The notes below the pieces were generated by a model. That model saw only the letters and a program-made list of their open reading frames with translations, ran no database searches and was not told the origin of the DNA. From a virus: a stretch of DNA of 64,000 bases. The position numbers and the translations under genes are program-made. Below, one piece after another: positions 1,813-63,548 of the stretch. Location of the stretch: the IMG/VR virus record IMGVR_UViG_3300016665_000824, positions 64,001-128,000 of that record; one strand, 5' to 3'. The number at the start of each line of letters is the position of its first letter. Positions within the stretch are counted from its first letter, which is position 1.

Positions 1813-4394
1813 TAGCTCACCCTCCGAAACTTGTCGCGGGTTTCCCAGTAGGCTGCGAGGTAGACTTCCGATGTGGCGATCGCGTCGTTATTGAGTTGAC
1901 TGTCAATGAAGTCGCGTCCCTCCTTCTGCTTTTTCTGGATTTGCTCTTGTTGATAGGCGATCGCTTTTTGTAGTTTTGAGATCTGCTTCTCAGGGGTTAG
2001 TGTTCCAAATCCAGTTATATCTATCCCCATATTGGTTAGTGCTGTTTGAGATGCAGCTAGCGGCTTCTTCCCTGACTGAATTCGAGCAAGGGTCGCCTCT
2101 AAGGTCTTAGTGGTTGCCTCCATCTTGCTGATGTTGTTTTGAAGCGTTTTCAAGTCTATAGGCGGAGTAGCAGTCTTTGATTCAGTACTTGCAGCAGTAT
2201 CCACTGATTTATTTTTACGCGATCGTTTTTGGGTTGCGGTAGTACTGGTTGCAGTACTTACTGATTTACTGCTAGGCGATCGCGTAGAACTTTTTGAAAG
2301 GGGTGGCGCGGCGGAAGACTTAGCTCCGTAGTTTTCGGGATATCGGGCTTTGTTTTCTTGCACCAGTGATTCGTAGTAATCGGCGAATCCGTCTGCCGCT
2401 TCTTTTGCCTGTTCAAGGGAAAAGAAGCGGGTTTTATCTCTGTTCCTACCGCTAAACATATCGGCTAAATCTTCAGGTTCGTGCTCTTCGGTATAAACCA
2501 TCCACCCATCATCTTCTTTTTGGATGGAAATAAAGAGTGATGCGTCTTTGTCTGAAGCCTTTTTTCTTGCGTTGGAGCTGTATCTGTCAGCAGAGTCTGG
2601 ATCTTTAACCCACTCTCCAGCAATAACCTTGTCCAGCTTTTTATTGTATGTTTCTCGTGCTTTCTGTCTTCTCTCTGCGGCTTTCTGTTTTTTGGCAAAC
2701 TCTGCCAGTGTTTTTTCGGCGCTAGATACTAAACTGTTGGACTGACTTGAAGTCAAGTTGTCGGGTTTGCTGCTAGGCGATCGCTCTTGAGGGGTTTCGG
2801 GTTCTGCTTTAGGTGGTTTCGGAGCAACATACTTTTTACCAATCATCGCCTCATGCAGCAGCATTAATTCCTTGGCTTCAGAAGTATCAACACCTAGTGT
2901 CTCGATATCCCTAGCAATGACGGAGGCAAGCTTAGACTTTTGTTCTGGGGTAGCCTTGTCCGCAAACACCTCCTGATCCGACTGAGGAAACTTCTTGGTG
3001 TTTCTCAGCTCGTAAGCCGCATTTATGTTTGCTATCCCATCAACAGCCTTGGAAATCCTAACAGCTTCTTCCTGTGCTATTTCTTTCTTGCTTTTAGGTT
3101 TGACTGGAACATTCGCCTCCTGAGCGATCGCCGCTACTGGCTGGATAACTTCTTCAGTTTTTGGTTTTACCGCCCTGCTGCGACTCTTCTTAGGCTCGCC
3201 CTCTACGGGGTTTTTGGTTGATCTTTCTGTGTTAGGAGTCTCGTCTACCTGAGTTTTTGGAGGCTTAGCCGCTTTCTCTGTCGATCGAGACTTCGCCCGT
3301 GGGTTCTTGATGTTCTCGGCGATCGCCTCTTGAATCTTGTCTTGATTACGAGTAAACCGCATCTCGCCTACACGAATAACTCCTTTCCCATCCCTAAGAT
3401 CGATAGAGTATTGATTTGCACTCTCGGCAAGAGGAGTTCCTTTTTTCTTGTCAATGGCTCCACGAAACTGGATAGAGTCCTCAAGTCCATGTTCTTTAAG
3501 CTTGTCGTATAGTCGCTGCAAATCGACAGACTGTTTTTCGCGAGCAACCTTGTTTACAATACCGTTTCCTGCGCGAGCCTTTACGTCGTCGATACGGACA
3601 TATCCCTCATCATCAGCTAACTCAAGGTTCTGCTTCTTCCTCTCGATCTCTTCTGGGAGGAGTTGCTTACGTTTCAGTTCCGCAGCTAGAGCTAGTTCAT
3701 ACCCCCTCTTTTGGGCGGGGTAATTAACCGAAACTAGCTCCTTCAGGGCTTGAATCTTGGGTTGCTCAGCTTCGTATGCGGACTGGGCTTCTGGAGTTCT
3801 AACCTCTTGAGTCTTCTGCGGTTTTGTTACAGGAGTAGACTCAACCTGTTCAACTATGGGTTCAACCTCTTTAATATCTGTGTTTGCGGGTGGAGTTGAC
3901 TTGTTTGCGATCGCCGCACCAACACCCAATCCAACAGTCGCAGCCGCACCAACACCTACCGCAACATTTCTTGAAGTATTAGAGGGCGGAAGAGTTGGTC
4001 TCTGCCTAACGGGTTCCTGATAAGGTTCACTAGAACGCCCTGCGTTCACCACTGCGCCAGTCAAGGCTAGTCCGCCAACAGCTAATCCCGCACCGATCGC
4101 CGCTTTACTAAGAAAGCCCATCTCAGATTTTGGTGGTTCCTGCGATCGCGCCAATGCTCGCTCTAATTTTGATGGTGGTAGTACATTTACGCCCTGTCCT
4201 TGTGGAGCTTTCCGATAATAAAAACCACCCCTAACACGTCTATCCTGAACGCAAACATAACCTGCCCGTGGAGCGCAAGCATCGTAGCGCAACTTAACTT
4301 CTAGAGCCGCATCAATATACTCTTGAGGCATTACATCAAGAGTAATTTCGTCTAGATACAGACCAGCAAGGTAGTTCTTATCGAGATCTGGCAT
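1812..4394 (-). CDS. large (860 aa) membrane-anchored, low-complexity/coiled-coil protein of unknown function
   Basis: Two Gly/Ala-rich hydrophobic segments near N-terminus, long Lys/Glu/Ser/Thr-rich region; immediately upstream of Mu F-like gene. Confidence 0.55.
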   Translation of the reverse strand: MPDLDKNYLAGLYLDEITLDVMPQEYIDAALEVKLRYDACAPRAGYVCVQDRRVRGGFYYRKAPQGQGVNVLPPSKLERALARSQEPPKSEMGFLSKAAIGAGLAVGGLALTGAVVNAGRSSEPYQEPVRQRPTLPPSNTSRNVAVGVGAAATVGLGVGAAIANKSTPPANTDIKEVEPIVEQVESTPVTKPQKTQEVRTPEAQSAYEAEQPKIQALKELVSVNYPAQKRGYELALAAELKRKQLLPEEIERKKQNLELADDEGYVRIDDVKARAGNGIVNKVAREKQSVDLQRLYDKLKEHGLEDSIQFRGAIDKKKGTPLAESANQYSIDLRDGKGVIRVGEMRFTRNQDKIQEAIAENIKNPRAKSRSTEKAAKPPKTQVDETPNTERSTKNPVEGEPKKSRSRAVKPKTEEVIQPVAAIAQEANVPVKPKSKKEIAQEEAVRISKAVDGIANINAAYELRNTKKFPQSDQEVFADKATPEQKSKLASVIARDIETLGVDTSEAKELMLLHEAMIGKKYVAPKPPKAEPETPQERSPSSKPDNLTSSQSNSLVSSAEKTLAEFAKKQKAAERRQKARETYNKKLDKVIAGEWVKDPDSADRYSSNARKKASDKDASLFISIQKEDDGWMVYTEEHEPEDLADMFSGRNRDKTRFFSLEQAKEAADGFADYYESLVQENKARYPENYGAKSSAAPPLSKSSTRSPSSKSVSTATSTTATQKRSRKNKSVDTAASTESKTATPPIDLKTLQNNISKMEATTKTLEATLARIQSGKKPLAASQTALTNMGIDITGFGTLTPEKQISKLQKAIAYQQEQIQKKQKEGRDFIDSQLNNDAIATSEVYLAAYWETRDKFRRVS

Positions 4395-4953
4395 AATGTC
4401 TTTTCACTTCTAGATAGGCGGCTTGGTACTCAAGGGGTTTGGTTGAGTCAACTCGTTTAGATTTTGCGAGTGGTTTCTTATAGTTCGGAGCCTTGTCTTG
4501 ACCACCACAAGCGCATTGAGCTTTAGTCAACCCTTTCTTCTTGCAGTCCGAACATCCGCATTTATCGTTCATACCCATAGAATCCACCTTGTATTTATTA
4601 CTGCCGTTAGCAGGAAGGCTCTTTGACCACAAATCTTTCCTTGCCCAATGATTGGGACTAAACACGTCGTTTGCTGTGGACTGCCCTGATTTGTTTTTAA
4701 TCCCCGCCGATCGCGCTAAGTAGCTCTTCTTCGCCTCGGCGCTGTAGTTGTTCTGATATCCAGTTGCGCCATAGTGGACAACCTTGATGCGATCGCCTTT
4801 TTTCACGAGTACAGCCCGTTTCTTGCCTGGTCGCCATGACTTGATGGGTTTGTTAAAAGCGGGAAAGGTATGCCCAGCATAGTTAATACCGCCACCTTCC
4901 TTCTTGAGGCAGCGCTTGCCTGCCGAGATATATCCTTTGCCGCATTGAGCCAT
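4378..4953 (-). CDS. basic Cys-rich hypothetical protein
   Basis: 191 aa ORF, Lys-rich with CGCSDC and CACGG cysteine clusters; 17-nt overlap with downstream gene. Confidence 0.4.
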   Translation of the reverse strand: MAQCGKGYISAGKRCLKKEGGGINYAGHTFPAFNKPIKSWRPGKKRAVLVKKGDRIKVVHYGATGYQNNYSAEAKKSYLARSAGIKNKSGQSTANDVFSPNHWARKDLWSKSLPANGSNKYKVDSMGMNDKCGCSDCKKKGLTKAQCACGGQDKAPNYKKPLAKSKRVDSTKPLEYQAAYLEVKRHYARSR

Positions 4954-5039
4954 GATTTAGATCTGAATACGTTGTCCGATAATAAGCGATCGCCAATTCA
5001 GCTTCATTTAAAATCTCCGAAGGCGCGATCGCTAAGATT

Positions 5040-6593
5040 TTGGCATTTAGTTGTGCGATCGCTATGGCAAAATTTACAACAGGAGATCAGGCTTCAACTG
5101 CTGCTCTGTCGCGAGTTGACACTCTTCTCCAAACTATAAATACCGACGCAGACTATGCGCTTTGGCGGGAATGGATTTATGACAGGGCGATCGCCAAACT
5201 AGCACTAGGCTTAACTGGCGGAGGTGGAAGCTCCACTTCAATTCTTGCGGGTTTCAAGGCGATCGCTAATGGCACTGGCTACAGTATTGGCGATTTGATA
5301 TTTTTGCGGCAAACAGGAACTAACCAAACCGAATATTACAACGGTACTACAGGTTTAGTTATTACACCTGCCCCACCTAGCAGCGATCTTGGCTCTATTA
5401 TCTCTTCTAGTAATGTTGCTGTTACATCACTTCCTCCATTGCCGTCTGGCGCAAATACCATTGGCGCTATATCAAATGCTAGTTTTGGTATTAGTGGTAG
5501 CTTGCCAGCATTTGCTAGCACACCCACAGTAAATATTGGTACTACTGGCGCGATCGCCACTGATAGCACCTTACAGCAAGTAAGGGACGCGATCAAAGCA
5601 CAGATCGATATCGCCTCAACAATTTGGACAGATAACACAGATACTTTTTATGTACGACGAGATCTGGTAAACGAAGGAACGGGAGTAATCACTGTATCTT
5701 TTACTTTGCCAGACGGTACGGCGGCTACACCTAGCGCTGGACTTAGACCTCTAGCAACCGTAGATAAAGATGTTCTTAGTGATTATTACGATGTATTGAT
5801 TGCGGGTACTGGCTATGCGATCGGGGATTTATTAGCAAGGGTTGCGATCATTGATGCAAACGGTGCTTCTCCAACATCAACATTTATCTGGCTGAATTTG
5901 ACGGCAGGGACAATCCTCGGAACAGCACCTAGTTCTGCAAATATTGAAAGAGCGAACGAAACTATCGGTGCTAGGCAAAGCGGTACATGGAATATCACCA
6001 ATATTAGTGGTACGGTATCACTACCTACGGGAGCCAGTACATCGGCTAATCAGGCTACAGCGATCTCAAGCCTTGGCAGCATTGACGGAAAACTCCCTGC
6101 GAGTTTAGGGGTAAAAACTGCTGCTAATTCACTTGCTGTAACGCTTTCAACGGATGGAATCGCGAGTGGAATTGACACAAAAATTGGCGAAGTCCAAACA
6201 ACTCCAACTGCTAATACTGTTTTGGCGAGATTAAAAAATATTGCTGATGCGTTGGTGTTTGGGGCAAAATCACCAGCTAATAGTATTTCAGTTACCCAAG
6301 CTTTCGCCGCAACATCTACCCTAGCGAATGTGGCTAGTAGTGCGACATCAGTTAGCTTGTTAGCTGCCAACAATAACCGCAAAACAGCAATCATTCTAAA
6401 TGATTCGACTTCAGATTTATACGTTACTCTCAACGCAAGCGCCGCCAGTACGACGAATTATTCATTATTTTTAGCCGCTAAAGTTGGTAACACGCCATCA
6501 TTTTTAGCTATAAATGGTGATGATTATTCGGGCGAAATTCGTGGAATTTGGAGTAGTGCTAATGGTTTCGCAAGAATTACGGAGGTCGTGTAA
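5040..6593 (+). CDS. tail fibre-like protein (Ser/Thr/Ala/Gly-rich); ATG at 5064 is an alternative start
   Basis: 517 aa low-complexity S/T/A/G/N-rich composition typical of fibre/receptor-binding proteins; stop overlaps next start (TAATG). Confidence 0.5.
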   Translation: MAFSCAIAMAKFTTGDQASTAALSRVDTLLQTINTDADYALWREWIYDRAIAKLALGLTGGGGSSTSILAGFKAIANGTGYSIGDLIFLRQTGTNQTEYYNGTTGLVITPAPPSSDLGSIISSSNVAVTSLPPLPSGANTIGAISNASFGISGSLPAFASTPTVNIGTTGAIATDSTLQQVRDAIKAQIDIASTIWTDNTDTFYVRRDLVNEGTGVITVSFTLPDGTAATPSAGLRPLATVDKDVLSDYYDVLIAGTGYAIGDLLARVAIIDANGASPTSTFIWLNLTAGTILGTAPSSANIERANETIGARQSGTWNITNISGTVSLPTGASTSANQATAISSLGSIDGKLPASLGVKTAANSLAVTLSTDGIASGIDTKIGEVQTTPTANTVLARLKNIADALVFGAKSPANSISVTQAFAATSTLANVASSATSVSLLAANNNRKTAIILNDSTSDLYVTLNASAASTTNYSLFLAAKVGNTPSFLAINGDDYSGEIRGIWSSANGFARITEVV

Positions 6594-7498
6594 TGATTAT
6601 TGTTAATAATTCCACTAGTGCTGCTGGCATTGGGAAAAACTATTTTAAGAATCCCAATTTTCAAGTAATCCAAGGCACTGCATCAGGGACGCTCGCCAAT
6701 TCCACAGCATTACCCACAGCATCACTAGGATACCTAGGTGAGACTGAATGGGGTATTGCGGCGGCGGGTGGCACTCCTGCTTATGCTTTTAGCTCAGCGA
6801 ATGAATCTGTTACCTTTACGGGTGCAGCATCAACTACCGCTATTTATTTGCTTCAAAGACTTGAAAGCAGAGATATTACTACTCTAGCCAACAAACTGGC
6901 GACAATTACTTTTAGTGCTGAGATATCTAATTCGCTGCTTACTTCGGTAATTTGGGAAGTATTTCGCCCTACTACCACTGCTGACACTCATGGCACAATT
7001 GGCACACCTACGCAGACATTGATTGCTAGTGGAACGTTCACCGTAAACTCAACGCTGACAAAGTATAGCGCCACATTTACCCTTCCTGCATTAGCTGCTA
7101 ATGGACTGGAGGTAAGACTAAGAGTAGGGGCGCAAACTTCTGGAACTTGGGTGGTGTCAAGGTTGCAATTAGAAGAAGGTAGTGTTGCTACTAACTTCAT
7201 TTGTGATGATTATTTGACTGAATTGAATCAATGTCAAAGATACTTTAGAAGATTATCAGATTATCTATATGTTTATTTTGGTACTACTGGTGTATTAAAT
7301 AGTGAACGAATGCATTTAAATATGTTTGGTACTACTAGAATTAGAAATTTAATAGCACAAAATTCAATAGGTGGAACTGGAGTTACTATATCAGCAGGAC
7401 TTAATGAAGATTCAACTAGAGCTAATTATATAAATAATGCTGGAGCTGGTTACTATGGTGGCAATCCATTATATACAGTGTCAGCACACATCCCTTAA
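6593..7498 (+). CDS. tail fibre-like protein
   Basis: 301 aa, S/T/A/G-rich, translationally coupled to upstream fibre-like gene. Confidence 0.45.
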
Positions 7499-7515
7499 AA
7501 ATACAAATAAAAACA

Positions 7516-7896
7516 ATGGAATTTACATATAAACTAATACAAAATCAACCAAACTCCATCATAAGACTTGAAGATGGAGCAATTATCCCAGAAGGGCATA
7601 ATGGTGATTGGCAACTTTACGAGGCATGGTTAGCTGAAGGAAATACGCCTGAAGCCGCTGATGCGCTGCCTATTGTAGTGCGGGAAATCGATGCTCGTAA
7701 ACTGCGATTAGCTTTGCTTCAATTAGGGCATCTATCTACCGTCACTAGCGCTATTTCTAGCCTTGGTGAGGCTGCAATCATTGATTGGGAATATGCCACA
7801 ATCATTCGCGAAGATTACCCTTTGGTACTGGCTTTGGCAAGCAATTTAAATTTGGATATTAAAGCAATATTTGATTTAGCGAATTCATTGGTGTAA
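7516..7896 (+). CDS. hypothetical protein (possible tail-fibre assembly/chaperone by position)
   Basis: 126 aa ORF directly downstream of fibre-like genes; positional inference only. Confidence 0.35.
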
Positions 7897-7898
7897 TT

Positions 7899-8444
7899 GT
7901 GGCAGGAGATCTAATCCCAATCTTAAAGAGCTATTTTGATTTTGCGGTGATCGCGCAAATATCGGACAATAGAGGTACGGTTGGGATACCTTCTCAATCA
8001 AATCCCCCCGACAGCAGCATCAGCCAGATCAGCACTGCTGCTGTCGGTAGTGCTGTCGTTGTTACTGCTCTTTTTAAATTGTTTGAAAAATTTGGAACAA
8101 ATGTAATTGATGGGCAAAAAAGCAGGCTTAGCCTTGATTTAAAGGCTAAAGAGCTAGAGCTAGAATTTGAAAAGGCTGAAAAGTTGGCAGCCAGAAAAGA
8201 GGAAGAGCGCAAAACTGAACTAATCGAACAAATACTGAATAACGCACTGTCACACGTTTACAGCACAGCCAAAGAAAACAAAGAAATTTACCATGAATTG
8301 CTTGAAAAATTCCAAAAAAGTAACGAAATTAACGAGAAAGCTTGGAGCAAAATAGAAGAACAAAGCCAAGAAATCCATTTGTTAAACCAAACTTTAAAAG
8401 ATGTTTTAGCGACGCTAAGTTTGAAAGATCGTCAAAAAACCTAA
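7899..8444 (+). CDS. hypothetical protein with hydrophobic segment and Lys/Glu-rich coiled-coil region
   Basis: 181 aa ORF; start 3 nt after upstream stop. Confidence 0.4.
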   Translation: MAGDLIPILKSYFDFAVIAQISDNRGTVGIPSQSNPPDSSISQISTAAVGSAVVVTALFKLFEKFGTNVIDGQKSRLSLDLKAKELELEFEKAEKLAARKEEERKTELIEQILNNALSHVYSTAKENKEIYHELLEKFQKSNEINEKAWSKIEEQSQEIHLLNQTLKDVLATLSLKDRQKT

Positions 8445-8510
8445 AACAAAAGCCCAACTCAAGCTATGGCAAGAATTGGGCGTAGGTTACGGACAGGGGT
8501 GGCTATGGGG

Positions 8511-8930
8511 TCAGGCCATTCCTACTTGATCTTGACCAGATAACGTAGCGATCGCCAACCACTCCGCTAGTCCATCGGCAAATCCTTTGTCACTGTATTC
8601 GTCAAGGCTGTAGATAGAGTCGATGCGATCACGCACCTCTTCTAGCGTCAAACCTTCTTTTTGCCATTGTTTTAGCTTTCGCCCAATCACTTGATTGAAC
8701 TTCTCGATTTGTGGCGCTAGATTTTCTCTCGCCAACTCAGAAATGCGATCGCGCAAATCATTCTCTTCGATTTCGGAGATCTCATCGTCAAACCGTTGCA
8801 GATATTCGGGATTTTCTTGAGCAATGCGAACGCGGAGTAGCTGTATCGCATCATCGAACAGGATGTCGATTTCGTTAGGTGCGATCGCGTCAGTCCTATA
8901 GCCAAGCTTTTCTAATACTTCGAGTTTCAT
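8511..8930 (-). CDS. hypothetical protein
   Basis: 139 aa ORF, 4-nt overlap with upstream gene. Confidence 0.4.
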   Translation of the reverse strand: MKLEVLEKLGYRTDAIAPNEIDILFDDAIQLLRVRIAQENPEYLQRFDDEISEIEENDLRDRISELARENLAPQIEKFNQVIGRKLKQWQKEGLTLEEVRDRIDSIYSLDEYSDKGFADGLAEWLAIATLSGQDQVGMA

Positions 8931-9337
8931 ACCTCTACCGCCTTAACACCATAATCGAAACTGAGAAGCTTGATCAAAAAGCTTGGCAACTCATCTTCAA
9001 GTCTAGTAAATCCAGTCTCTGACTGCCCTTCAAGATACGTGTAAACGTAGTAGGGAGCTTCTTCTTGGAGTAAGAAATAAAATTGATATCCTTGATGATC
9101 GTAAAAAACAATAGCTTCGTCAGGAAGTTCCTTTAAAAACCCATCCTCTTTGAGCAAAGATTTAAAAGCTGCTTTTACTTCGGAGCAAGAGTGAACAAGC
9201 AGGGCTATCAACTTGTTGTTCTCGCCTAGTAGTAGTTCTGTACTCATAGACTGATGGAGTCGCTCAAACTCTTCGGTAGGAGCGTCGGAAAAATTTATTC
9301 TTAGGAGATCCTGAACCTTATCGAAAACTATATACAT
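8927..9337 (-). CDS. hypothetical protein (start moved to internal ATG at 9337)
   Basis: Track ORF 8927..9442 overlaps upstream gene; internal Met (MYIVFDKV) removes most of the overlap. Confidence 0.4.
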   Translation of the reverse strand: MYIVFDKVQDLLRINFSDAPTEEFERLHQSMSTELLLGENNKLIALLVHSCSEVKAAFKSLLKEDGFLKELPDEAIVFYDHQGYQFYFLLQEEAPYYVYTYLEGQSETGFTRLEDELPSFLIKLLSFDYGVKAVEV

Positions 9338-9552
9338 TTTAATCCTAAATCCTTGGTGGCTTTGATAGCGTCCTTTTCTGAGTCGGCGGCGTACAGGCAA
9401 AACTTGTCGGCGATCGCCTGTACCTTCCATAGCCCTGCCCATCCCTGCTCGATCTCAACTGGTTCCTGTGTATTCACAATGTTGGTGGCACGAATCAAGG
9501 TGTTGCTGAGCAGGTGGGAGTTTTGAATATCTTCGAGTGTTAATTTTGCCAT
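9328..9552 (-). CDS. hypothetical small protein
   Basis: 74 aa; ATG immediately follows the stop of the 551-aa gene (TAAATG on minus strand). Confidence 0.4.
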   Translation of the reverse strand: MAKLTLEDIQNSHLLSNTLIRATNIVNTQEPVEIEQGWAGLWKVQAIADKFCLYAADSEKDAIKATKDLGLKCI

Positions 9553-11208
9553 TTATTTGAGTCGTCCCTCAACCCACATCTTAGCAAAGGGAGAGTCCAA
9601 ATCCTTAAACAACCGAGAAGCAATTTCTACAGCCGAAACGGAATCCTGTTTAACACCTTCTTCGGGAGGTGTATCTGCTTGACCCTGATCTGCACCTTGA
9701 TCGCCAAAGTAGTCGCCACCTTGATCGCCGCCATATCCCTGTAGAGCTGCAAGCTCTTGTTGCTGCTTGGCTAATTCTTCATCCTGCTTCAGTTTTTCCC
9801 ACGCTTCCTTATCGAGAGAGACCTCATAGGAGTACTCTGTTCCACCGTAGAGGCTAGCGCGAACTTCATCCTTAGTAATTGCTCCCGACTGGGTTTGCAG
9901 AGCGATAAGCATATTAGTGTGAGCAGTTTGGTTGGCTACTTCATCTTTGCGACTCTCTACATAGAGGGGTTTAAACTTATAAGACCATCCTTCAGGGATC
10001 TTACCCTTCGTAGGGCCATCTTGAGCGAGCCAAATATACTTGTAAAGCATATCCAACTTGCGGTGGCGATAATTCTGCTCTTGATAGGCAGCAACGGTCT
10101 TTGACCAAACCTGATCTTCGGTTTCTCCAGTACCACCTGCCGCTAACCCTTTTGGTCCACGCCCAAAGATCATTGTGTAAGGAATCCCCACCGCAGCAAC
10201 CAAATCTTCTTGAAAGCTCGCTTTCATGTCGGACAAGCCTTGGTAGTTCCGCACTAGATAAGTAAGGTCATCTTCCGAGTCTACCGACACCGCCCCCAGC
10301 TTCCGCATCTGCATCTTCATGGCGCGAAACTGTTCTGAAAGAATGGTTAAAGCTTTTGGCACTCCATTGGTAGTGGCAGCTCCACCAGCAGCTTTTTCTT
10401 GGGCAAGATTTTGTTTGATCAGGTTTTGCAGGTTCTTCATCTTGTGGAGAAGAATCGTGTGATCTTGAATCATCTCCGCCATTGCGTCGGAGACTTTTGT
10501 GTAGCGAGCAATTTCTTTGAGTGCTGAGACGATTAGCGGATCGCCCCATCCACCCGTCGATCGCAACAATCTTGGAGGTAATCGAGAACCATCAAATCGA
10601 ATAATCCGCGATTTGTGAATTAAGTTGAACGAGGTGTAGTTTGAGCCTAACTTATCTATCTTGGATTTCGATTCTTGGGAGTAAAAGACCTGATAAAAGT
10701 CGGGGTCATCAGAGGGTGCATCAAGGTTTGGGAAATACGGGCGGATATCCTGCGGGTCAAGCTCGTAGATACCCTTGATGGTTTTAATTTTTGCCGTGTT
10801 AACTGGCTCGTTTGGGGGTAGCCCATCATCGATATTGACGAGAATAGCTGCGCCGCCATAAATATTCGCTAGCCAGTCAGCCTTATTAAATTTGTATTTC
10901 GCTTCTATCCTTTCTTCGTACTGTTCAAAGGCTGTGGCAATCTTGCGATCAGTGTCCTTAACTAAGCTAATCTCAGTCCATTTTCTTGTTGCCTCGTCAG
11001 GAAACACCGAGACAATTTTCTTTCCTAGCCAGTCCCTAGATAGTTCTTCGAGGGCTTTGTAGCTTAGTCTGCGCCGATCGCCTGTGCTATTCATCCCCAG
11101 ATCATTCTGAGCGAGCAGGTTGTTGTTGTACTCAGCCTCATAGAGCGCATCGATAATGGCTCCGTCTTGTCTCACATAGACTTCGGGATAATCTGTTTCT
11201 TTGGACAT
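9553..11208 (-). CDS. major virion structural protein (portal or major capsid candidate; not resolvable by eye)
   Basis: 551 aa ORF with Gly/Asp/Gln-rich C-terminal tail; preceded by intrinsic terminator and leader inverted repeat; downstream of a coiled-coil scaffold-like gene. Confidence 0.6.
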   Translation of the reverse strand: MSKETDYPEVYVRQDGAIIDALYEAEYNNNLLAQNDLGMNSTGDRRRLSYKALEELSRDWLGKKIVSVFPDEATRKWTEISLVKDTDRKIATAFEQYEERIEAKYKFNKADWLANIYGGAAILVNIDDGLPPNEPVNTAKIKTIKGIYELDPQDIRPYFPNLDAPSDDPDFYQVFYSQESKSKIDKLGSNYTSFNLIHKSRIIRFDGSRLPPRLLRSTGGWGDPLIVSALKEIARYTKVSDAMAEMIQDHTILLHKMKNLQNLIKQNLAQEKAAGGAATTNGVPKALTILSEQFRAMKMQMRKLGAVSVDSEDDLTYLVRNYQGLSDMKASFQEDLVAAVGIPYTMIFGRGPKGLAAGGTGETEDQVWSKTVAAYQEQNYRHRKLDMLYKYIWLAQDGPTKGKIPEGWSYKFKPLYVESRKDEVANQTAHTNMLIALQTQSGAITKDEVRASLYGGTEYSYEVSLDKEAWEKLKQDEELAKQQQELAALQGYGGDQGGDYFGDQGADQGQADTPPEEGVKQDSVSAVEIASRLFKDLDSPFAKMWVEGRLK

Positions 11209-11257
11209 ATTCAGTGGCGATCGCGTATGTCCATCTGACAGGCGATCGCCACTGAAT
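11209..11257. promoter_or_regulatory. perfect 16-bp inverted repeat (ATTCAGTGGCGATCGC / GCGATCGCCACTGAAT, 17-nt spacer) abutting the start codon of the 551-aa gene
   Basis: Read directly: arms 11209-11224 and 11242-11257; start codon at 11206-11208 on minus strand. Confidence 0.55.
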
Positions 11258-11279
11258 CAGGAGTATTTGCTAAAAAAGC

Positions 11280-11309
11280 AAAACAGGACTGCGTTGGCAA
11301 TCCTGTTTT
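11280..11309 (-). terminator. rho-independent terminator-like hairpin for minus-strand transcripts
   Basis: 9-bp stem AAAACAGGA/TCCTGTTTT with 12-nt loop; on the minus strand followed by GCTTTTTTA. Confidence 0.5.
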
Positions 11310-11310
11310 A

Positions 11311-11328
11311 GGTGATTCAGATCGGAAT
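11311..11328. repeat. 18-mer GGTGATTCAGATCGGAAT (copy 1), abutting stop codon of minus-strand gene 11329..12120
   Basis: Exact copy at 21272-21289; one-mismatch copy at 49106-49123. Confidence 0.6.
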
Positions 11329-12120
11329 CTATTCTGGGATGTCTATATCCCCAAGCGCTCTTATCTTCTCTCTAAACTCTATAAATGTCCTTACCACGCC
11401 TATGTAGTCACTAAATCGAGTCTTAAGCTCAGAGACTTCTTTCTGGCTTAGCTGTAGAGACTCAATATAGTTTTGTTCTCGATCCTTGAGGTTCGCGTTC
11501 TCTTCCTTAAGATCCGCAATCTGTCTGCGTAGATCGGCGATCGCTATTAGGATCTGATCAATCTCCTCCTTTGTTATTGCGCTTGGAGGATCTTCAAACT
11601 CCCCATTCTGTAGGGCGATCGCGCCAATCTTCCGAATAGCTTCGCGGTACTGAAGTCTTTCTTTCTGGAGGTCGTAGGCACTTTTCTCGATCTTTGTATA
11701 CTCTGCGTCAGTCACGTATGGAGGGGACTCCACTTCGACACACAGAAAGTTCGTGCCAATTCTTGCTAATCTATACCCAATCTCGGACTTAGCTCGACGG
11801 ATATGATTTATCTGGGATTCCAGCTTTGTATAGAACTCGTCGGTCTCAACGTCGGACGGAGAAAAACCTTCGTCTAGCAAGAGCCTGCCAAGATAATCAA
11901 TCTTTTTAGCGAATAGCTTCTTGGTTTCTACTGCTCGTTCGTAGTCTTCTAGCTGCTCAACATAGGTCTGTGCAAGCGTCTGAATACTCTCGTACTGCGA
12001 TCGCGGAACGAACCACTTGGAAAGGATGTCGTTAATTAGATTCAAATCAATCCTCCAGCTCATCTGCGTCTGGGGGTGCGGGAGTGCTAACCACAGTAAG
12101 CCAATTAGCTTTTTGCTCAA
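11329..12120 (-). CDS. coiled-coil protein (scaffold-like by composition and position)
   Basis: 263 aa, Glu/Lys/Leu/Gln-rich heptad-like stretches; immediately upstream of the major virion gene. Confidence 0.4.
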   Translation of the reverse strand: MSKKLIGLLWLALPHPQTQMSWRIDLNLINDILSKWFVPRSQYESIQTLAQTYVEQLEDYERAVETKKLFAKKIDYLGRLLLDEGFSPSDVETDEFYTKLESQINHIRRAKSEIGYRLARIGTNFLCVEVESPPYVTDAEYTKIEKSAYDLQKERLQYREAIRKIGAIALQNGEFEDPPSAITKEEIDQILIAIADLRRQIADLKEENANLKDREQNYIESLQLSQKEVSELKTRFSDYIGVVRTFIEFREKIRALGDIDIPE

Positions 12121-12736
12121 CTAAAGCCGCTTGATAGTCCTGCTCCTCAAGAGTGGAGAGATCGGGGCGCAACTCGGCTAGTTTTTCGTCAGGAATGGCA
12201 ATCAATTTTTCGGCAGTTTTGACTGCGGCGATTTCTTCGGGAGTTACTTGCTGCCCAGTGAGATCTTCTAGGGTTGGCGCTTCAGGAGTTTTTTCGCCGA
12301 AGCCTTTTTTCTTGCGAGATTTCTTTTCTGGTTGAGGCTCCTCCACTGCGGCTTCCGTATTTTGAGGTAACACCGCATTGATAAATTCAATCAGTTCAGT
12401 TGCACCCAAACTTGCTGGCAAGGTGGGGATTAGCTTTCTGAGATTATTCTCCAATGCTACGCGGGGATTCTTGGCGGGGTCTGGCTCGATTTCAGGGTCT
12501 AGGTTTAGAGAGAACAAGAAAGCCGAGTCGCGATCGCTAGATTGTGTTTCCACCATTAGATCCTGAAAGGCTTTTACGGGATCTTTGGTTGTTAGCGCCG
12601 ACTCATAGGCTTTGGCGGACGAAATTTTTAAAAGCGACCAAATAATCTTGGTGGCAGGATCGATCGCGGCATCGCCAGAAACGAAGGGGTACTCAACGCC
12701 GCGCACGGTGATAGTGTTACTCAACGAATTCTCCAT
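12047..12736 (-). CDS. acidic hypothetical protein
   Basis: 229 aa ORF, Glu/Asp/Pro-rich C-terminus. Confidence 0.4.
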   Translation of the reverse strand: MENSLSNTITVRGVEYPFVSGDAAIDPATKIIWSLLKISSAKAYESALTTKDPVKAFQDLMVETQSSDRDSAFLFSLNLDPEIEPDPAKNPRVALENNLRKLIPTLPASLGATELIEFINAVLPQNTEAAVEEPQPEKKSRKKKGFGEKTPEAPTLEDLTGQQVTPEEIAAVKTAEKLIAIPDEKLAELRPDLSTLEEQDYQAALVEQKANWLTVVSTPAPPDADELED

Positions 12737-13247
12737 AAATATTTAGGTTTGACTGATATCGAAAAATCACGCCGAAGGGGATATCGACTATCCATGCAGG
12801 TGACTGCTCATACTGCGTCCTTATGGGCTGTCTTGGTACAGGGGTAATATCCCGTCCGTCCCATTCGACTCCTAAGAAGTTTTTGCTGGGGATTTTAAAT
12901 CTGTTGTACTTCGCGATCGCGTGAGAGATGAACGCCAGTTCGACAGGAACTTTTTGTTTGTATTCAGTCTCGTTGGCATATCCTTTGATCGCCAAAACCT
13001 CAATCCTTTGCATTCGATAAGCCCTGTTTGGGCTGTCGGGACGCTCAGAATCTTTGCCGTGGTCGCCAATTGAAGCTATGCCGACGGTCTCGCCTTCGAT
13101 CACGTTGTAGTAATCCCCACTAGTGTCTAAGTGCAGCTCACTGATAATGTGTGCGACAAAGTGATTTATCGACTCGGTTATAAGCCCTTTGTAATAGTCT
13201 TCAAAGTTCATCGTGGCGATCGCAAAATATTGCCTTGATATTACCAC
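12717..13247 (-). CDS. hypothetical protein
   Basis: 176 aa ORF in minus-strand structural block. Confidence 0.4.
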   Translation of the reverse strand: MVISRQYFAIATMNFEDYYKGLITESINHFVAHIISELHLDTSGDYYNVIEGETVGIASIGDHGKDSERPDSPNRAYRMQRIEVLAIKGYANETEYKQKVPVELAFISHAIAKYNRFKIPSKNFLGVEWDGRDITPVPRQPIRTQYEQSPAWIVDIPFGVIFRYQSNLNIYGEFVE

Positions 13248-13373
13248 AGAAATGCGTTATGGTTGTTATGCGATCGCCAAGTCTCAATTGGCAGGAAGAA
13301 TGTCACTGGCGACAAACATAAGGATACGCGGCGAGATACTGGCGATCATCTTAAAAGAAATCGTAAAAACCAC

Positions 13374-13805
13374 ATGAAAGAACTTGAAAACAATAAAGAT
13401 CTTGAATCTTTTCTAAAAGAGCTGCGAGAGCAGGCGGTTGCGGGTGACTTTGGTGTGGATGCTCTGCTTAACGAAGTAAGGAAAGCCGCAAAAAAGTGTG
13501 AAGAATTTAGGAATACAGAGTCTAGTCAGCCCAAGGATATTGAGTTTATTCAAGCTCTAATGCGATTTGCCGCTAACCAGCCCAGTCTTGCATTTCTAAC
13601 CCCTTATTTTGGCAAACAAAAATCAGAAGAAGAAGTTCAGGCTATTTTTAAATCGTTGCTGCTTAGGGAGTTAGGAGAACTCAAACTCTCTGCTAATCAC
13701 CACAAAGCCAGTATTCAGTTCTATCAATATGAACTAAAAAGGAACGAGAGATATCGAGCAGACATAGAAGAAGCGATCTCCAGAAATTATCCAAACCTAA
13801 AATAA
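13374..13805 (+). CDS. hypothetical protein (opposite-strand insert in the structural block)
   Basis: In-frame ATG at 13374 inside track ORF 13263..13805; Lys/Glu-rich. Confidence 0.35.
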   Translation: MKELENNKDLESFLKELREQAVAGDFGVDALLNEVRKAAKKCEEFRNTESSQPKDIEFIQALMRFAANQPSLAFLTPYFGKQKSEEEVQAIFKSLLLRELGELKLSANHHKASIQFYQYELKRNERYRADIEEAISRNYPNLK

Positions 13806-19901: not shown

Positions 19902-20230
19902 TTAAGAAGCGTCCAGCGATCGGGCGGCTAGTAAGGTTGCCAAGTAAAATCGTCACTGTTGTGGGGTATAAGGATGGGGTTTTTCTAGTCCGCGTCGGCA
20001 CGGGAAAGACTCAGAAAATCACGGAATCGTTTCTTATGGCGCACGGCGTTCTTGTCGAGAAGGAGTGGCGCGAGGAGAAGAAGTCTGCACCCAAACAGGA
20101 ATACGTGAACCGAGAGTTTAAACGCTTCTTTGAGGAGCGAGCCGAAAGGGACTACCAAGAAAAAGTTCTTAAGGGCTTTAAGATTGAGGATGAAGTTATC
20201 GAAGGATTTGAGGCGATCGCGGAGGAATAA
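19898..20230 (+). CDS. hypothetical protein
   Basis: 110 aa; ends in junction repeat GGCGATCGCGGAGGAATAA. Confidence 0.4.
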   Translation: MIKKRPAIGRLVRLPSKIVTVVGYKDGVFLVRVGTGKTQKITESFLMAHGVLVEKEWREEKKSAPKQEYVNREFKRFFEERAERDYQEKVLKGFKIEDEVIEGFEAIAEE

Positions 20231-20233
20231 ATG
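20212..20233 (+). repeat. gene-junction repeat GGCGATCGCGGAGGAATAA + ATG (copy 1)
   Basis: Identical 19-mer at 20419-20437; degenerate third copy at 20682-20703. Confidence 0.7.
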
Positions 20234-20437
20234 GATATCGAAGAACTTGTTGCCGCAGCATCCGTAAGTCGGCATATATATCTTGAGCGCGTCGGCAAAG
20301 GTAGGCTACCAAAAGGATTTCCCTGTGGTGAGCTAATGTGCGTTAATTCGGACGGCAACCGAACTTATTTATTTGATTCGGCGAAAGTCTTAAAGTGGTG
20401 TCGAAAGCAAAATAATCAGGCGATCGCGGAGGAATAA
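20231..20437 (+). CDS. small DNA-binding protein candidate (excisionase/AlpA-like HTH)
   Basis: 68 aa; overall resemblance to excisionase-type HTH proteins; weak. Confidence 0.3.
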   Translation: MDIEELVAAASVSRHIYLERVGKGRLPKGFPCGELMCVNSDGNRTYLFDSAKVLKWCRKQNNQAIAEE

Positions 20438-20439
20438 TG
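20419..20439 (+). repeat. gene-junction repeat GGCGATCGCGGAGGAATAA + ATG (copy 2)
   Basis: Read directly; combines HIP1, GGAGGA, stop TAA and next ATG. Confidence 0.7.
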
Positions 20440-20703
20440 CGAAAAATAGACAAGGACTACAGTTTTACAGAACGAGAGATTCAGGCGTTAATGTTGATAT
20501 GCACTATTGGACGAGAAGACTGGCTCACTAAAGAGGTGAAGGAGATATTGTCGCAATACATAAGCAGAAAGATGTATCACAGGACTGCTTCTCAAGTCTT
20601 TGCTCACAGAAAAAGAGTTCTGGGTTCTTTCCCTAGCAATGCGGGTAAATACTTACTTGAAAGGCGAACTAGCTTTATTGAGCGATCGCGGAGGAGTGAG
20701 TAA
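20437..20703 (+). CDS. hypothetical protein
   Basis: 88 aa; ATG overlaps upstream stop (TAATG). Confidence 0.4.
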   Translation: MRKIDKDYSFTEREIQALMLICTIGREDWLTKEVKEILSQYISRKMYHRTASQVFAHRKRVLGSFPSNAGKYLLERRTSFIERSRRSE

Positions 20704-20710
20704 AAATATA

Positions 20711-20745
20711 AAAAGACGATCCGACGTGAGATCGGATCGTCTTTT
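20711..20745. terminator. bidirectional intrinsic terminator between convergent genes
   Basis: 14-bp perfect stem AAAAGACGATCCGA/TCGGATCGTCTTTT, 7-nt loop; A-run on one side and T-run on the other. Confidence 0.6.
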
Positions 20746-20874
20746 TATATTTTGGTAGGCTGTGAAACAACTAATACAAAAGGGTTTTAGGGTATTGGAA
20801 GGAATTTTGGTAAGGTGTGAATCTCGCTGCTTTTTAATTACGCGAATACACGTAATTCATATTTACCAATACCT

Positions 20875-32340: not shown

Positions 32341-32384
32341 GATCGCCACTTTTTCAGATCTGAATTACCACAAAAGCACAATGA
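32341..32384 (+). repeat. junction repeat R2 (...AGATCTGAATTACCACAAAAGCACAATGA), copy a
   Basis: 29-bp identical core at 32356-32384 and 33097-33125, flanked by near-identical GATCGNCNCTTTTT. Confidence 0.75.
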
Positions 32385-48465: not shown

Positions 48466-48485
48466 ATGCTTTATAAAGGTAGGTT

Positions 48486-48580
48486 AAAACCCATCAGTTA
48501 AACCTTCAAGCACTGCCTTCAACAATATACGCGGCGCGTGTATCTCTGGCTTAGCTCTATTGATTTAACTGATGGGTTTT
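48486..48580. promoter_or_regulatory. perfect 17-bp inverted repeat (AAAACCCATCAGTTAAA / TTTAACTGATGGGTTTT) with 61-nt spacer
   Basis: Read directly: arms 48486-48502 and 48564-48580, inside a 657-bp ORF-free region upstream of the terminase operon. Confidence 0.5.
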
Positions 48581-63533: not shown

Positions 63534-63548
63534 CAAACAGTCTAATAG

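What the first reader, a model, noticed from the sequence alone, without database searches (positions are those of the whole stretch)
11209..11309. Start codon of the major virion gene sits directly against a perfect 16-bp inverted repeat, just downstream of a terminator
On the minus strand a terminator-like hairpin (11280-11309) is followed by a perfect inverted repeat (arms 11209-11224 and 11242-11257, 17-nt spacer, each arm containing HIP1 plus 8 further matching bases) whose 3-prime arm ends one base before the ATG at 11208-11206. No Shine-Dalgarno is visible, so the initiation region would be sequestered in a stable hairpin if transcribed, or the palindrome is a dimeric-regulator operator. 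Either way it suggests specific control of a highly expressed late gene.
Basis: seen in the sequence. Interest (0 to 1): 0.5.

Follow-up and report, generated by a model that had tools for sequence, protein, structure and literature searches.

The report
Conserved HIP1 hairpin before portal gene
A very stable hairpin made from two copies of the cyanobacterial HIP1 palindrome sits against the start codon of a cyanophage portal gene; its core is kept in all 13 known relatives, so it probably tunes portal production, but the perfect 16-bp form seen here is specific to this lineage.

Summary
On the minus strand, an intrinsic terminator (11309-11280 plus T-run) is followed by a perfect 16-bp inverted repeat (11257-11242 / 11224-11209, 17-nt loop) that abuts the ATG at 11208. 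The gene is a phage portal (PF06381), not a major or highly expressed virion gene. HIP1 occurs 185 times in the window, so half of each arm comes cheaply. Even so, this is the only one of 39 close HIP1 pairs with an 8-bp outward extension. Thirteen related lineages (portal identity 97-49%) all keep HIP1 - loop - HIP1 - 6-9 nt - ATG, whereas HIP1 sites inside the portal genes turn over freely. The outer 8 bp is not conserved. It is replaced by other complementary sequences in two lineages, carries two G·U pairs in the nearest relatives, and is weak or absent elsewhere (folding energy -13 to -42 kcal/mol). The arms vary while the loop and the distance to the ATG are fixed, which is the opposite of what a dimeric-regulator operator would show. 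Best reading: a cis-acting RNA stem-loop in the portal translation-initiation region. In this window it closes positions -1 to -49 and should restrict ribosome loading or make it depend on processing. No step of this mechanism has been shown experimentally. A separate repeated palindrome (TTCNGATCTGAA) just upstream is the better operator candidate.

The parts
9553..11208 (-). Portal protein gene (551 aa); ATG at 11208-11206
   Evidence: PF06381 Phage_portal_3, E = 1.5e-57; phrog_146 portal, E = 1.2e-74; 20 homologs at 96-45% identity; N-terminus conserved from the first Met.
11209..11224 (-). 3' arm of the inverted repeat (GCGATCGC-CACTGAAT); HIP1b = 11217-11224
   Evidence: HIP1b is present in 13/13 lineages (GTGATCGC in L073 and L075, which gives G·U), always 6-9 nt from the ATG.
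11225..11241 (-). 17-nt loop CUGUCAGAUGGACAUAC, with inner 4-bp mini-stem UGUC (11240-11237) / GACA (11231-11228)
   Evidence: Ten loop positions are invariant in 9 close-clade lineages. The mini-stem is 94% paired with one-sided (wobble) changes only. The loop motif is unique in the window and is found in public contigs only in front of portal genes.
11242..11257 (-). 5' arm of the inverted repeat (ATTCAGTG-GCGATCGC); HIP1a = 11242-11249
   Evidence: HIP1a is present in 13/13 lineages (ACGATCGC in L068). The outer 8 nt is lineage-specific.
11271..11309 (-). Intrinsic terminator: stem 11309-11297 / 11292-11280, loop CAAC, then UUUUGCUUUUUU; the T-tract can also form a small hairpin with AGCAAA (11282-11266)
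   Evidence: (I2). Consensus fold of 8 lineages: 13 pairs, 3-4 with compensatory changes. Absent in L091 and in the distant clade.
11311..11328 (-). Near-palindromic repeated motif ATTCCGATCTGAAT-CACC, immediately after the stop codon of the upstream ORF
   Evidence: The core TTC(A/C)GATCTGAA is conserved at this position in 8 of 9 close-clade lineages (all but L091). There are five strong copies plus one moderate copy in the window. Homology between the window, the L001 group and L004 begins exactly here.
11329..12120 (-). Upstream ORF (263 aa, coiled-coil-like, no family); stop TAG at 11331-11329
   Evidence: A different gene occupies this position in the L001 group (292 aa) and in L004.

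Best explanation
The inverted repeat is the DNA template of a cis-acting RNA stem-loop in the translation-initiation region of the portal mRNA. Its conserved core is an 8-bp stem formed by two HIP1 octamers, with a sequence-conserved loop and a fixed position 6-9 nt upstream of the AUG. In this window's lineage the stem has been extended outward by 8 bp, so that every nucleotide from -1 to -49 lies within the hairpin and only the AUG and the coding side are free. The most likely consequence (inferred, not shown) is that 30S docking is strongly hindered. Portal synthesis would then be kept low, in line with 12 copies per virion, or would depend on unwinding or endonucleolytic processing of the stem. 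The upstream terminator would independently reduce transcription entering the gene. In relatives without the extension, an SD-like GAGG/GGGUG lies directly 5' of the short hairpin, and the hairpin could bring it to working distance from the AUG. The same core may therefore act as a tunable gate whose setting differs between lineages. Shown: the existence, stability, conservation, position and partial covariation of the element, and its presence inside transcribed intercistronic space in some relatives. Inferred: that it acts as RNA, and the direction of its effect on translation.
For: 1) Conservation beyond the HIP1 background. The dyad is present in 13/13 lineages spanning 97-49% portal identity. 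HIP1 sites inside the same portal genes number 0-3 per 1.65 kb, none is shared between clades, and they are patchy within clades. 2) The position is tied to the start codon and not to upstream features. The spacing is 6-9 nt whether the upstream context is a terminator (8 lineages), an upstream stop codon a few dozen nt or less before HIP1a (L091, L078, L079), or a divergent intergenic region (L075). 3) In the distant clade and L091 it fills the space between two co-oriented genes with no terminator, so it is transcribed. 4) Outer-stem evolution. Three different complementary sequences occur (win ATTCAGTG/CACTGAAT; L004 ATTTAGGTA/TACCTAAAT, extending over the AUG; L091 TAATAA/TTATTA). The nearest relatives differ from the window by two substitutions at G-paired positions (window C, relatives T: G-C versus G·U). 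L073 and L075 have GTGATCGC, again G·U. Formal count: 87% of cells paired against 23-53% in slid registers, and 5 pairs with changes on both sides (12/500 shuffles reach this). 5) The arms vary and the loop is conserved, as expected for a stem-loop recognised through its loop. 6) It is extreme for this genome: the most structured of 80 leaders, and the lowest -10..-1 accessibility. 7) An SD-like 5' flank (<= -5.7 kcal/mol; about 10% of background 12-mers score that well) occurs in L068, L071, L074 and L089, the lineages with little or no outer extension.
Against: Stability is not conserved: -12.9 kcal/mol (z = 0.2) in L068 and about -17 in L073 and L074, against -33 to -42 in the window and L004. 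A stable stem as such is therefore not under uniform selection. HIP1 is itself a palindrome, so two copies always pair, and the invariant 8 bp says nothing about RNA versus DNA. The strand-specific wobble signal is weak (about 7 G·U against 2 A-C in formed stems; no asymmetry when all flanks are counted). Both strands fold equally well in the window. Only two clades and 13 lineages are available. There is no transcript, 5'-end or expression data. At the operon's first gene (13211), a similar HIP1 pair brackets a conserved extended -10 promoter. There, only the proximal HIP1 would be in the mRNA, which shows that a HIP1 pair next to an ATG need not act as an RNA hairpin. Published genome-wide analyses found no enrichment of HIP1 near start codons or transcription start sites in cyanobacteria (PMC5861425).
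Confidence: 0.45

Rival explanations
1. The hairpin acts as RNA, but mainly as a processing or stability element and not as a translational gate. One version is an RNase III-type cleavage site that separates the portal message from upstream RNA and frees the AUG. Another is an intercistronic hairpin that protects flanking RNA from exonucleases and sets the ratio of upstream to downstream gene products.
For: In the window the 16-bp stem stacks on a 4-bp inner stem across a 1x3 internal loop, giving about 20 bp. L004 forms a stem of about 24 bp that is nearly continuous. Such long perfect duplexes are typical RNase III substrates (established knowledge from T7 and lambda N leader sites). The element is intercistronic in several relatives. 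Intergenic stem-loops that set operon stoichiometry are documented in other bacteria (PMC10311766).
Against: Several lineages have only 8-12 bp (L068, L073, L074, L089), too short for canonical RNase III recognition, so processing cannot be the conserved function. A fixed distance to the AUG is not required for a stabiliser. Nothing was tested with cyanobacterial RNases.
Confidence: 0.2
2. It is a neutral by-product. HIP1 sites are maintained genome-wide by whatever process makes them hyper-abundant, and two of them happen to flank the portal leader. The perfect outward extension then arose by quasi-palindrome 'correction' (template switching during replication), with no functional consequence.
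For: HIP1 occurs every 346 bp on average. The outward extension is labile: 0 to 12 bp in different lineages, in a non-monophyletic pattern. Stability varies from insignificant to extreme. The window differs from its nearest relatives by two changes that perfect the palindrome, as template switching would produce. When null placement is restricted to non-coding DNA, the enrichment of HIP1 pairs at gene starts is only marginal (P = 0.049).
Against: Both sites, their spacing and the loop persist in 13/13 lineages, down to 49% protein identity, while the rest of the intergenic sequence is unalignable and coding-region HIP1 sites turn over. The distance to the ATG is fixed. The loop has 10 invariant positions. 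A -33 kcal/mol hairpin abutting an AUG is very unlikely to have no effect on initiation (inference from established translation-initiation biology).
Confidence: 0.15
3. It is a DNA-level element. One version is an operator for a dimeric regulator. Another is a pair of methylatable HIP1 sites (each containing GATC and CGATCG) whose methylation state or occupancy controls transcription or RNA polymerase pausing, or marks a packaging or recombination site.
For: The dyad is symmetric. HIP1 is the target of two orphan methyltransferases in cyanobacteria (PMC4390886, PMC6105098). RNA polymerase ChIP peaks are enriched at HIP1 near transcript 5' ends in S. elongatus (PMC3219970). Together with the upstream palindrome, the region carries three GATC sites within about 130 bp in 8 of 9 close-clade lineages. 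At gene 13211 a HIP1 pair flanks a promoter. A C5 DNA methylase gene lies two genes upstream of the portal in L079 and L080.
Against: The non-HIP1 arm sequences differ between close relatives while the spacer is conserved, which is the reverse of an operator. The position is fixed relative to the ATG, not to any recognisable promoter. No sigma-70-like -10/-35 fits in or around the loop in either orientation (inspection). The arm sequence is not repeated elsewhere in the window. No terminase-like gene is adjacent. Long contigs run through the site, so it is not a genome end.
Confidence: 0.15

Closest known systems
Start-region-occluding leader hairpins and translational operator stem-loops (e.g. 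the MS2 replicase operator, the T4 gene 43 and regA targets, SD-sequestering leaders)
   Same: A stem-loop directly at the initiation region. The loop sequence is conserved while the stem sequence varies with compensatory changes. It would be expected to limit ribosome loading on a protein needed in few copies.
   Different: No binding protein is known or predicted. The stem core is a genome-wide repeat (HIP1), not a dedicated sequence. In the window the AUG itself is outside the stem. Stability varies about 3-fold between relatives.
Hairpin-bridged ('split') ribosome-binding sites of phage T4 genes 38 and 25 (from established knowledge)
   Same: In L068, L071, L074 and L089 an SD-like GAGG/GGGUG lies directly 5' of a compact hairpin, and the AUG lies 7-8 nt 3' of it. 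Folding would bring the SD and the AUG to a working distance.
   Different: In the window the 5' flank is not SD-like (-1.2 kcal/mol) and is itself paired with the spacer, so here the hairpin would occlude the site and not bridge it.
REP/BIME and similar intercistronic palindromes of enterobacteria; stem-loops that set operon stoichiometry (PMC10311766)
   Same: A hairpin made from a highly repeated genomic palindrome, located between cistrons, and plausibly affecting the relative expression of flanking genes.
   Different: REPs are defined units of about 35 bp, repeated as such. Here only the 8-mer is repeated, and the hairpin (arms plus loop) is unique to the portal leader. REPs are not fixed relative to the start codon.
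RNase III processing sites in phage leaders (T7 intergenic sites, lambda N leader)
   Same: A long, nearly perfect duplex with a small internal loop, immediately upstream of a phage gene. Cleavage would free the start codon.
   Different: The required duplex length is present only in some lineages, and cleavage is untested.
HIP1 (GCGATCGC), the highly iterated palindrome of cyanobacteria
   Same: Both arms contain exact HIP1. The whole window has host-like HIP1 density (1 per 346 bp).
   Different: HIP1 has no accepted gene-level function, and no enrichment near start codons was found genome-wide (PMC5861425). Here a specific pair is positionally conserved at a start codon across diverged phages.

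Membership tests
Intrinsic (Rho-independent) terminator - applied to the upstream hairpin 11309-11280 | G+C-containing stem-loop followed directly by a U-tract on the transcribed strand | tested here: met
   A 13-14 bp stem and 4-nt loop, then UUUUGCUUUUUU. The stem covaries in L004, L068, L074 and L089.
Intrinsic terminator - applied to the 16-bp inverted repeat itself | U-tract immediately 3' of the stem | tested here: not met
   The stem is followed by AUGUCCAAAG. In relatives it is followed by an A/U-mixed spacer of 6-9 nt and the AUG.
Operator for a dimeric DNA-binding regulator | Half-site (arm) sequence conserved among relatives and/or repeated at other regulated genes; spacer free to vary | tested here: not met
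   Outside HIP1 the arms are ATTCAGTG, ATTTAGGTA, TAATAA or unpaired in different lineages, while 10 of 17 spacer positions are invariant. There are no other copies of the arm in the window beyond generic HIP1 flanks.
Operator for a dimeric DNA-binding regulator | Positioned relative to a promoter (overlapping -35/-10 or the transcription start) | tested here: inconclusive
   No promoter-like site was found on the minus strand between 11209 and 11330. No conserved TAnnnT is present in the loop or flanks. Phage-specific promoters cannot be excluded.
Initiation-region-occluding leader hairpin | Stable structure covering the ribosome-docking region (-20 to -1) and/or the start codon | tested here: met
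   The unpaired probability of -10..-1 is 0.01 (the lowest of 80 genes) and of -20..-11 is 0.30. The AUG is 0.73 unpaired in the window and 0.0 in L004.
Initiation-region-occluding leader hairpin | Structure conserved with compensatory change in relatives | tested here: inconclusive
   The core dyad is invariant and therefore uninformative. The outer stem is 85% paired, with 5 pairs changed on both sides (12/500 shuffles), but it is absent in 6-7 of 13 lineages.
Initiation-region-occluding leader hairpin | The element is part of the mRNA and affects translation | not testable with these tools
   No transcript data are available. Indirect support: in the distant clade and L091 the element lies between co-oriented genes with no terminator.
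Hairpin-bridged (split) RBS, T4 gene 38/25 type | Shine-Dalgarno sequence directly 5' of the hairpin, with the AUG at SD-like spacing 3' of it | tested here: not met
   The window's 5' flank scores -1.2 kcal/mol against the anti-SD (background mean -1.4). The feature is met in L068, L071, L074 and L089 (-5.7 to -7.1).
RNase III processing site | About two helical turns of near-continuous duplex RNA | tested here: inconclusive
   The window has 16 bp + 1x3 internal loop + 4 bp. L004 has about 24 bp. L068, L073, L074 and L089 have only 8-12 bp. Cleavage is not testable here.
Described RNA family (Rfam 15) | Match to a curated covariance model | tested here: not met
   No match at E <= 1 in 4800-13500 on either strand.
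Mobile palindromic element (MITE, REP-like unit, IS200/IS605 end) | The same unit present at multiple unrelated genomic sites | tested here: not met
   The loop motif is unique in the window. A dyad-plus-loop pattern search of viral and metagenome contigs returned only portal-linked loci.

The most novel reading that the evidence does not exclude
A specific pair of HIP1 octamers has been recruited as a start-codon-proximal control element and kept for the whole divergence of a group of uncultured freshwater cyanophages. Similar HIP1 pairs abut two other operon-leading genes in this genome. If this is shown to act, as an RNA gate or as a methylation-sensitive DNA switch, it would be the first gene-level function demonstrated for HIP1, a repeat whose role has been open for about 30 years. 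Phages would then offer a compact system to test it.
Probability: 0.3. Interest if true: 0.6.

Novelty: new variant of a known kind. Interest (0 to 1): 0.4.

Why it matters
Leader hairpins that gate translation are a familiar device, so the mechanism class is ordinary. Two things are less ordinary. (1) The hairpin is built from HIP1, the hyper-abundant cyanobacterial palindrome, for which published genome-wide work found no gene-level role. Here one HIP1 pair is positionally conserved at a start codon in every known relative, while other HIP1 sites turn over. (2) Relatives show a graded series, from a short hairpin with an SD-like sequence beside it to a stem of more than 20 bp that buries the AUG. 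That series looks like evolutionary tuning of portal expression and could be tested directly with reporters.

Tried and rejected
1) Operator reading: rejected because the arms vary and the loop is conserved.
2) Promoter inside or around the hairpin, including a leaderless transcript. I looked for -35/-10 combinations in both orientations in all 13 lineages. TTGTCA-like loop sequences paired with A/T-rich 3' flanks would place the start inside the ORF, and no conserved TAnnnT is present.
3) Upstream mini-ORF in the loop (ATG 11234 to TGA 11211, 7 codons, ending 2 nt before the portal ATG), which could give translational coupling. The loop ATG is ATA in L073, L074, L089 and L091, and it is in frame with the portal in L004, so it is not conserved.
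4) Loop-to-start-codon pairing (11233-11226 with 11209-11202, I5) as a switch. It is wobble-compatible in L004, has a mismatch in the L001 group, and an 8-nt match is expected by chance about once per kb. Left as unproven.
5) Pairing of upstream CTGAATCA (11320-11313) with the 5' arm (I6): not conserved in L004.
6) Shared TCAGAT between the loop and the upstream palindrome: the hexamer is not enriched (41 observed against 38 expected), so this is treated as coincidence.
7) Packaging (pac/cos) site: there is no terminase-like neighbour, and long contigs run through the site.
8) Mobile element or IS605 end: the unit occurs only before portal genes.
9) Rfam: no hit.
10) Deposited phages: no nucleotide match. 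The closest portals, about 30% identical (S-CBS4, CL131, PaV-LD), have plain A/T-rich leaders without HIP1.
11) Leader comparison for gene 5064: only its C-terminal domain has relatives, so no comparison was possible.
12) The terminator-tail pattern search returned mostly unrelated contigs and was not used.

Full report
OBSERVATION. On the minus strand the region reads as follows: the stop codon TAG (11331-11329) of a 263-aa ORF; ATTCCGATCTGAAT-CACC (11328-11311); a stem-loop AAAACAGGATTGC/CAAC/GCAGTCCTGTTTT (11309-11280) followed by GCTTTTTT; 14 nt; then ATTCAGTG-GCGATCGC (11257-11242), a 17-nt spacer, GCGATCGC-CACTGAAT (11224-11209), and immediately ATG (11208-11206). The repeat finder reports the arms as 16 nt and 100% complementary. 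The terminator-like site is one of the two best in a 12-kb scan.

IS IT MORE THAN CHANCE? GCGATCGC (HIP1) occurs 185 times in the 64-kb window, against about 1 expected. Two nearby copies, which automatically pair with each other, are therefore common: 39 pairs lie within 110 nt of each other. Only this pair extends outward by 8 further complementary bases, and all the others extend 0-4. As RNA, the hairpin folds at -33.3 kcal/mol (z = -8.1). The -55..+12 leader is the most structured of 80 crude gene starts in the window (-33.9 against -10.5 +/- 5.6). The ten bases before the AUG have the lowest predicted accessibility of all 80 (0.01), while the AUG itself is mostly free (0.73).

WHAT THE GENE IS. 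The downstream ORF (551 aa) is a phage portal protein (PF06381, E = 1.5e-57; phrog_146, E = 1.2e-74). It is not a major capsid or other high-copy protein. The window also encodes a DnaG-type primase and a DnaB-type helicase and a tail-fibre-like protein, and it has no tRNA. It has no nucleotide match among deposited phages. The closest deposited portals are about 30% identical (Synechococcus S-CBS4, Aphanizomenon CL131, Planktothrix PaV-LD). The window is therefore part of an uncultured, HIP1-rich cyanophage. Related contigs reach 140 kb. One distant relative sits in a Pseudanabaena assembly.

COMPARATIVE EVIDENCE. Portal homologs at 96-45% identity and their contigs give 13 distinct leader sequences in two clades. 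Nine are in a close clade (78-97% identical among themselves) and four in a distant clade (about 50% identical to the close clade). Every one has HIP1 - loop - HIP1 - 6 to 9 nt - ATG. The exceptions are single transitions: ACGATCGC in L068, and GTGATCGC in L073 and L075, the latter giving G·U in the sense RNA. The close-clade loop is 17-18 nt, with 10 invariant positions (T-TCAGAT-G...AC). The distant-clade loop is 31-32 nt. Elsewhere the intergenic sequence of the two clades cannot be aligned.

As a control for the general 'stickiness' of HIP1, I counted HIP1 sites inside the 13 portal coding sequences. There are 0-3 per 1.65 kb, none is shared between clades, and they are patchy within clades. 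The leader dyad is therefore conserved well beyond the HIP1 background. Its distance to the ATG is constant although the upstream context differs. Eight lineages have a terminator there. In L091, L078 and L079 the stop codon of a co-oriented gene lies a few dozen nucleotides or less before HIP1a. L075 has a divergent intergenic region. The cultured cyanophages CL131 and PaV-LD have nothing comparable.

THE PERFECT 16 bp IS LINEAGE-SPECIFIC. I counted pairs in a fixed register outward from the HIP1 sites. The window has 8. The nearest relatives (97% portal identity) have 8, with two G·U pairs: their 3' arm is TATTGAAT, where the window has CACTGAAT. L004 has 12, using a different sequence (ATTTAGGTA/TACCTAAAT, continuing over the AUG). 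L091 has 6 (TAATAA/TTATTA). L071 and L073 have 3. The remaining seven have 0. The extended-stem lineages do not form a clade. Folding energies range from -12.9 (L068, no better than shuffles) through about -17 (L073, L074), -20 (L079), -25 (L091) and -29 (L001) to -33 (window) and -42 kcal/mol (L004). The formal pair count on the nine close-clade sequences gives 87% of cells paired against 23-53% for slid registers. Five outer pairs show changes on both sides (12 of 500 shuffles reach this). The 4-bp inner stem is 94% paired, with one-sided wobble changes only. The consensus fold of the eight lineages that share the whole module recovers the terminator (13 pairs, 3-4 with compensatory changes) and the HIP1 hairpin.

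INTERPRETATION. Three features point to an element that works as RNA at the translation-initiation region. First, its position is fixed relative to the start codon, not to any promoter or upstream gene. Second, in several lineages it lies in intercistronic space that must be transcribed. Third, the stem sequences vary, with compensatory or wobble changes, around a conserved loop. That last pattern is the opposite of what a dimeric-protein operator would show, since there the half-sites are conserved and the spacer is free. In the window the hairpin closes everything from -1 to -49, which should hinder 30S docking. Together with the upstream terminator, this fits a gene whose product is needed at only 12 copies per virion. 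The direction and size of the effect are inferred, not shown.

An extra observation suggests that the core may be used differently in different lineages. The four close-clade lineages with little or no outer extension (L068, L071, L074, L089) carry an SD-like GAGG/GGGUG directly 5' of the short hairpin (-5.7 to -7.1 kcal/mol against the anti-SD; about 10% of background 12-mers score that well). The extended-stem lineages, including the window (-1.2), do not. In those four, folding of the 33-nt hairpin would place the SD 8-12 nt from the AUG, as in the hairpin-bridged ribosome-binding sites of T4 genes 38 and 25 (established knowledge).

CAVEATS AND RIVALS. The invariant 8-bp core is a palindromic repeat, so it cannot by itself distinguish RNA from DNA function. 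The strand-specific wobble signal is weak (about 7 G·U against 2 A-C within formed stems; no asymmetry over all flanks). Both strands fold equally well in the window. Stability is not conserved.

A processing or stability role is plausible for the long-stem lineages, either as an RNase III-type site or as an intercistronic protective hairpin. It cannot be the shared function, because several lineages have only 8-12 bp.

A neutral origin of the extension (quasi-palindrome correction seeded by the HIP1 stem) would explain its lability and the two 'perfecting' changes in the window. It would not explain the conservation of the dyad, the loop and the spacing.

A DNA-level role remains possible. 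The options are methylation-sensitive sites, RNA polymerase pausing at HIP1 as reported in S. elongatus (PMC3219970), or protein binding to the conserved spacer. Such a role is also suggested by the operon's first gene (ATG 13211). There a HIP1 pair brackets a conserved extended -10 promoter (TGGTAATAT, 13246-13238), so that only the proximal HIP1 would be in the mRNA. I found no promoter-like arrangement in or around the portal hairpin in any lineage, no terminase-like neighbour, no Rfam match, and no copy of the unit away from portal genes.

RECURRENCE WITHIN THE GENOME. Of 16 HIP1 pairs spaced at most 50 nt apart, three end 1-8 nt before the ATG of a gene that appears to begin a transcription unit or follows a terminator: 5064(+), 11208(-) and 13211(-). 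The expectation is 0.24 (P = 0.0012 for random placement; P = 0.049 if all pairs are confined to non-coding DNA). This suggests a favoured leader layout but does not prove one. Published genome-wide work in cyanobacteria found no enrichment of HIP1 near start codons (PMC5861425).

A SEPARATE REPEATED MOTIF. Immediately after the upstream stop codon lies ATTCCGATCTGAAT, a near-perfect palindrome whose core TTC(A/C)GATCTGAA is conserved at this spot in every close-clade lineage except L091. It recurs in the window, followed by YACCACAA and oriented with the local genes, at 21289-21268(-), 49123-49102(-), 32352-32373(+) and 33093-33114(+). A weaker copy is at 61138, and a palindrome-only copy at 4955-4968. 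The uncompensated C at position 5 in three copies argues against an RNA hairpin and for a DNA site. If a dimeric regulator acts in this region, this motif is the better operator candidate. Homology between the window, the L001 group and L004 starts exactly at this motif, and the gene upstream of it differs in each, so it also marks a mosaic junction.

COMPARISON WITH KNOWN SYSTEMS AND NOVELTY. The element works like a start-region-occluding leader hairpin or translational operator. In some relatives it resembles a hairpin-bridged RBS. In its use of a genomic repeat it resembles REP-type intercistronic palindromes. It is not an intrinsic terminator (no U-tract), not an operator by the criteria tested, not a described RNA family, and not a mobile unit. 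I rate it a new variant of a known kind. The mechanism class is familiar. A positionally conserved HIP1 pair at a start codon has not been described in the literature I could search, and HIP1 has no accepted gene-level function. Interest is moderate (0.4). It would rise to about 0.6 if experiments showed that the dyad really controls expression.

Noticed in passing
window 11328-11311(-), 21289-21268(-), 49123-49102(-), 32352-32373(+), 33093-33114(+), 61138-61159(+), 4955-4968: Repeated motif TTC(A/C/T)GATCTGAAY-YACCACAA. It has a 12-bp palindromic core containing GATC and an asymmetric tail that follows gene orientation. There are five strong copies and one moderate copy (PWM scores 21.8-31.4; shuffle maximum 19.2). 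Most lie at gene boundaries, and one lies inside the primase ORF at about aa 448. It is a candidate phage promoter, operator or module-junction sequence; its function is unknown.
   Followed up: partly
window 11329-11331 and L001/L004 equivalents: This is a mosaic junction. The window, the L001 group and L004 carry three unrelated genes upstream of the portal. Nucleotide homology starts exactly at the stop codon and the palindromic motif.
   Followed up: partly
window 13211-13280 (-): The operon's first gene (164 aa, true ATG probably 13211 and not the listed GTG 13247) has a conserved leader: HIP1 - 46 nt containing the extended -10 TGGTAATAT (13246-13238) - HIP1 - CACG - ATG. This is kept in relatives even though the protein N-terminus differs (MNFEDYY in the window, MLTPTSV in relatives).
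   Followed up: partly
window 4955-5066 (+): The 509-aa gene (true ATG probably 5064) is preceded by three HIP1 sites (4986, 5025, 5055), the last only 1 nt from the ATG. A copy of the palindromic motif at 4955-4968 abuts the ATG (4953) of the divergent gene. Only the C-terminal 200 aa of the 509-aa protein has relatives (71 viral contigs), as expected for a mosaic receptor-binding or tail-fibre protein.
   Followed up: partly
window 9553-11208 and 5558-8547: These regions are HIP1-poor in an otherwise HIP1-dense genome. The portal gene has no internal HIP1 in 1.66 kb (about 4.8 expected from the window average), and there is a 3-kb gap in the tail-fibre-like operon. Relatives' portal genes also carry only 0-3.
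   Followed up: partly
window 20213-20233 and 20420-20439 (+): Two small adjacent genes have nearly identical leaders, GCGATCGC-GGAGGAATA(A)-ATG: a HIP1 fused to a strong Shine-Dalgarno sequence.
   Followed up: no
window 32357-32383 and 33098-33124 (+): A 27-nt exact duplicate, GATCTGAATTACCACAAAAGCACAATG, occurs 741 bp apart. Each copy ends in an ATG that opens an ORF. At 32400 an alternative ATG with a good SD (GAGG) suggests the first start may be mis-assigned.
   Followed up: no
window 48466-49122 (-): About 650 nt without an ORF longer than 45 aa. It begins with a motif copy followed by an extended -10-like TGTTAGAAT and two HIP1 sites. It could be a non-coding RNA or a regulatory or origin region.
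   Followed up: no
window 20703-20753, 63547-63592, 58485-58540, 62759-62829: Other long hairpins. Two are perfect, with 22-bp and 20-bp stems and A/T-rich feet (like bidirectional terminators). One is a perfect 17-bp stem with a 22-nt loop just after ORF 58546-58929(-). One is an imperfect 30-nt repeat whose 3' arm contains the ATG at 62823.
   Followed up: no
window 11234-11211 (-): A seven-codon mini-ORF (MDIRDRH) starts in the hairpin loop and stops 2 nt before the portal ATG. The loop ATG is ATA in four relatives, and it is in frame with the portal in L004, so it is not conserved.
   Followed up: yes
L078 2353-2934, L079 2351-2929; L078 4818-5990, L079 6323-7468: In the distant clade, the gene just upstream of the portal encodes a 192-aa protein with four tandem helix-turn-helix repeats. 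IS605-type OrfB/TnpB genes lie close to the portal. L079 and L080 also carry a C5 DNA methylase two genes upstream.
   Followed up: no
window 1812-4394 (-): An 860-aa ORF has no Pfam or PHROG match. It is adjacent to a gene that matches the 'minor head protein / DNA pilot' profile also hit by the portal.
   Followed up: no
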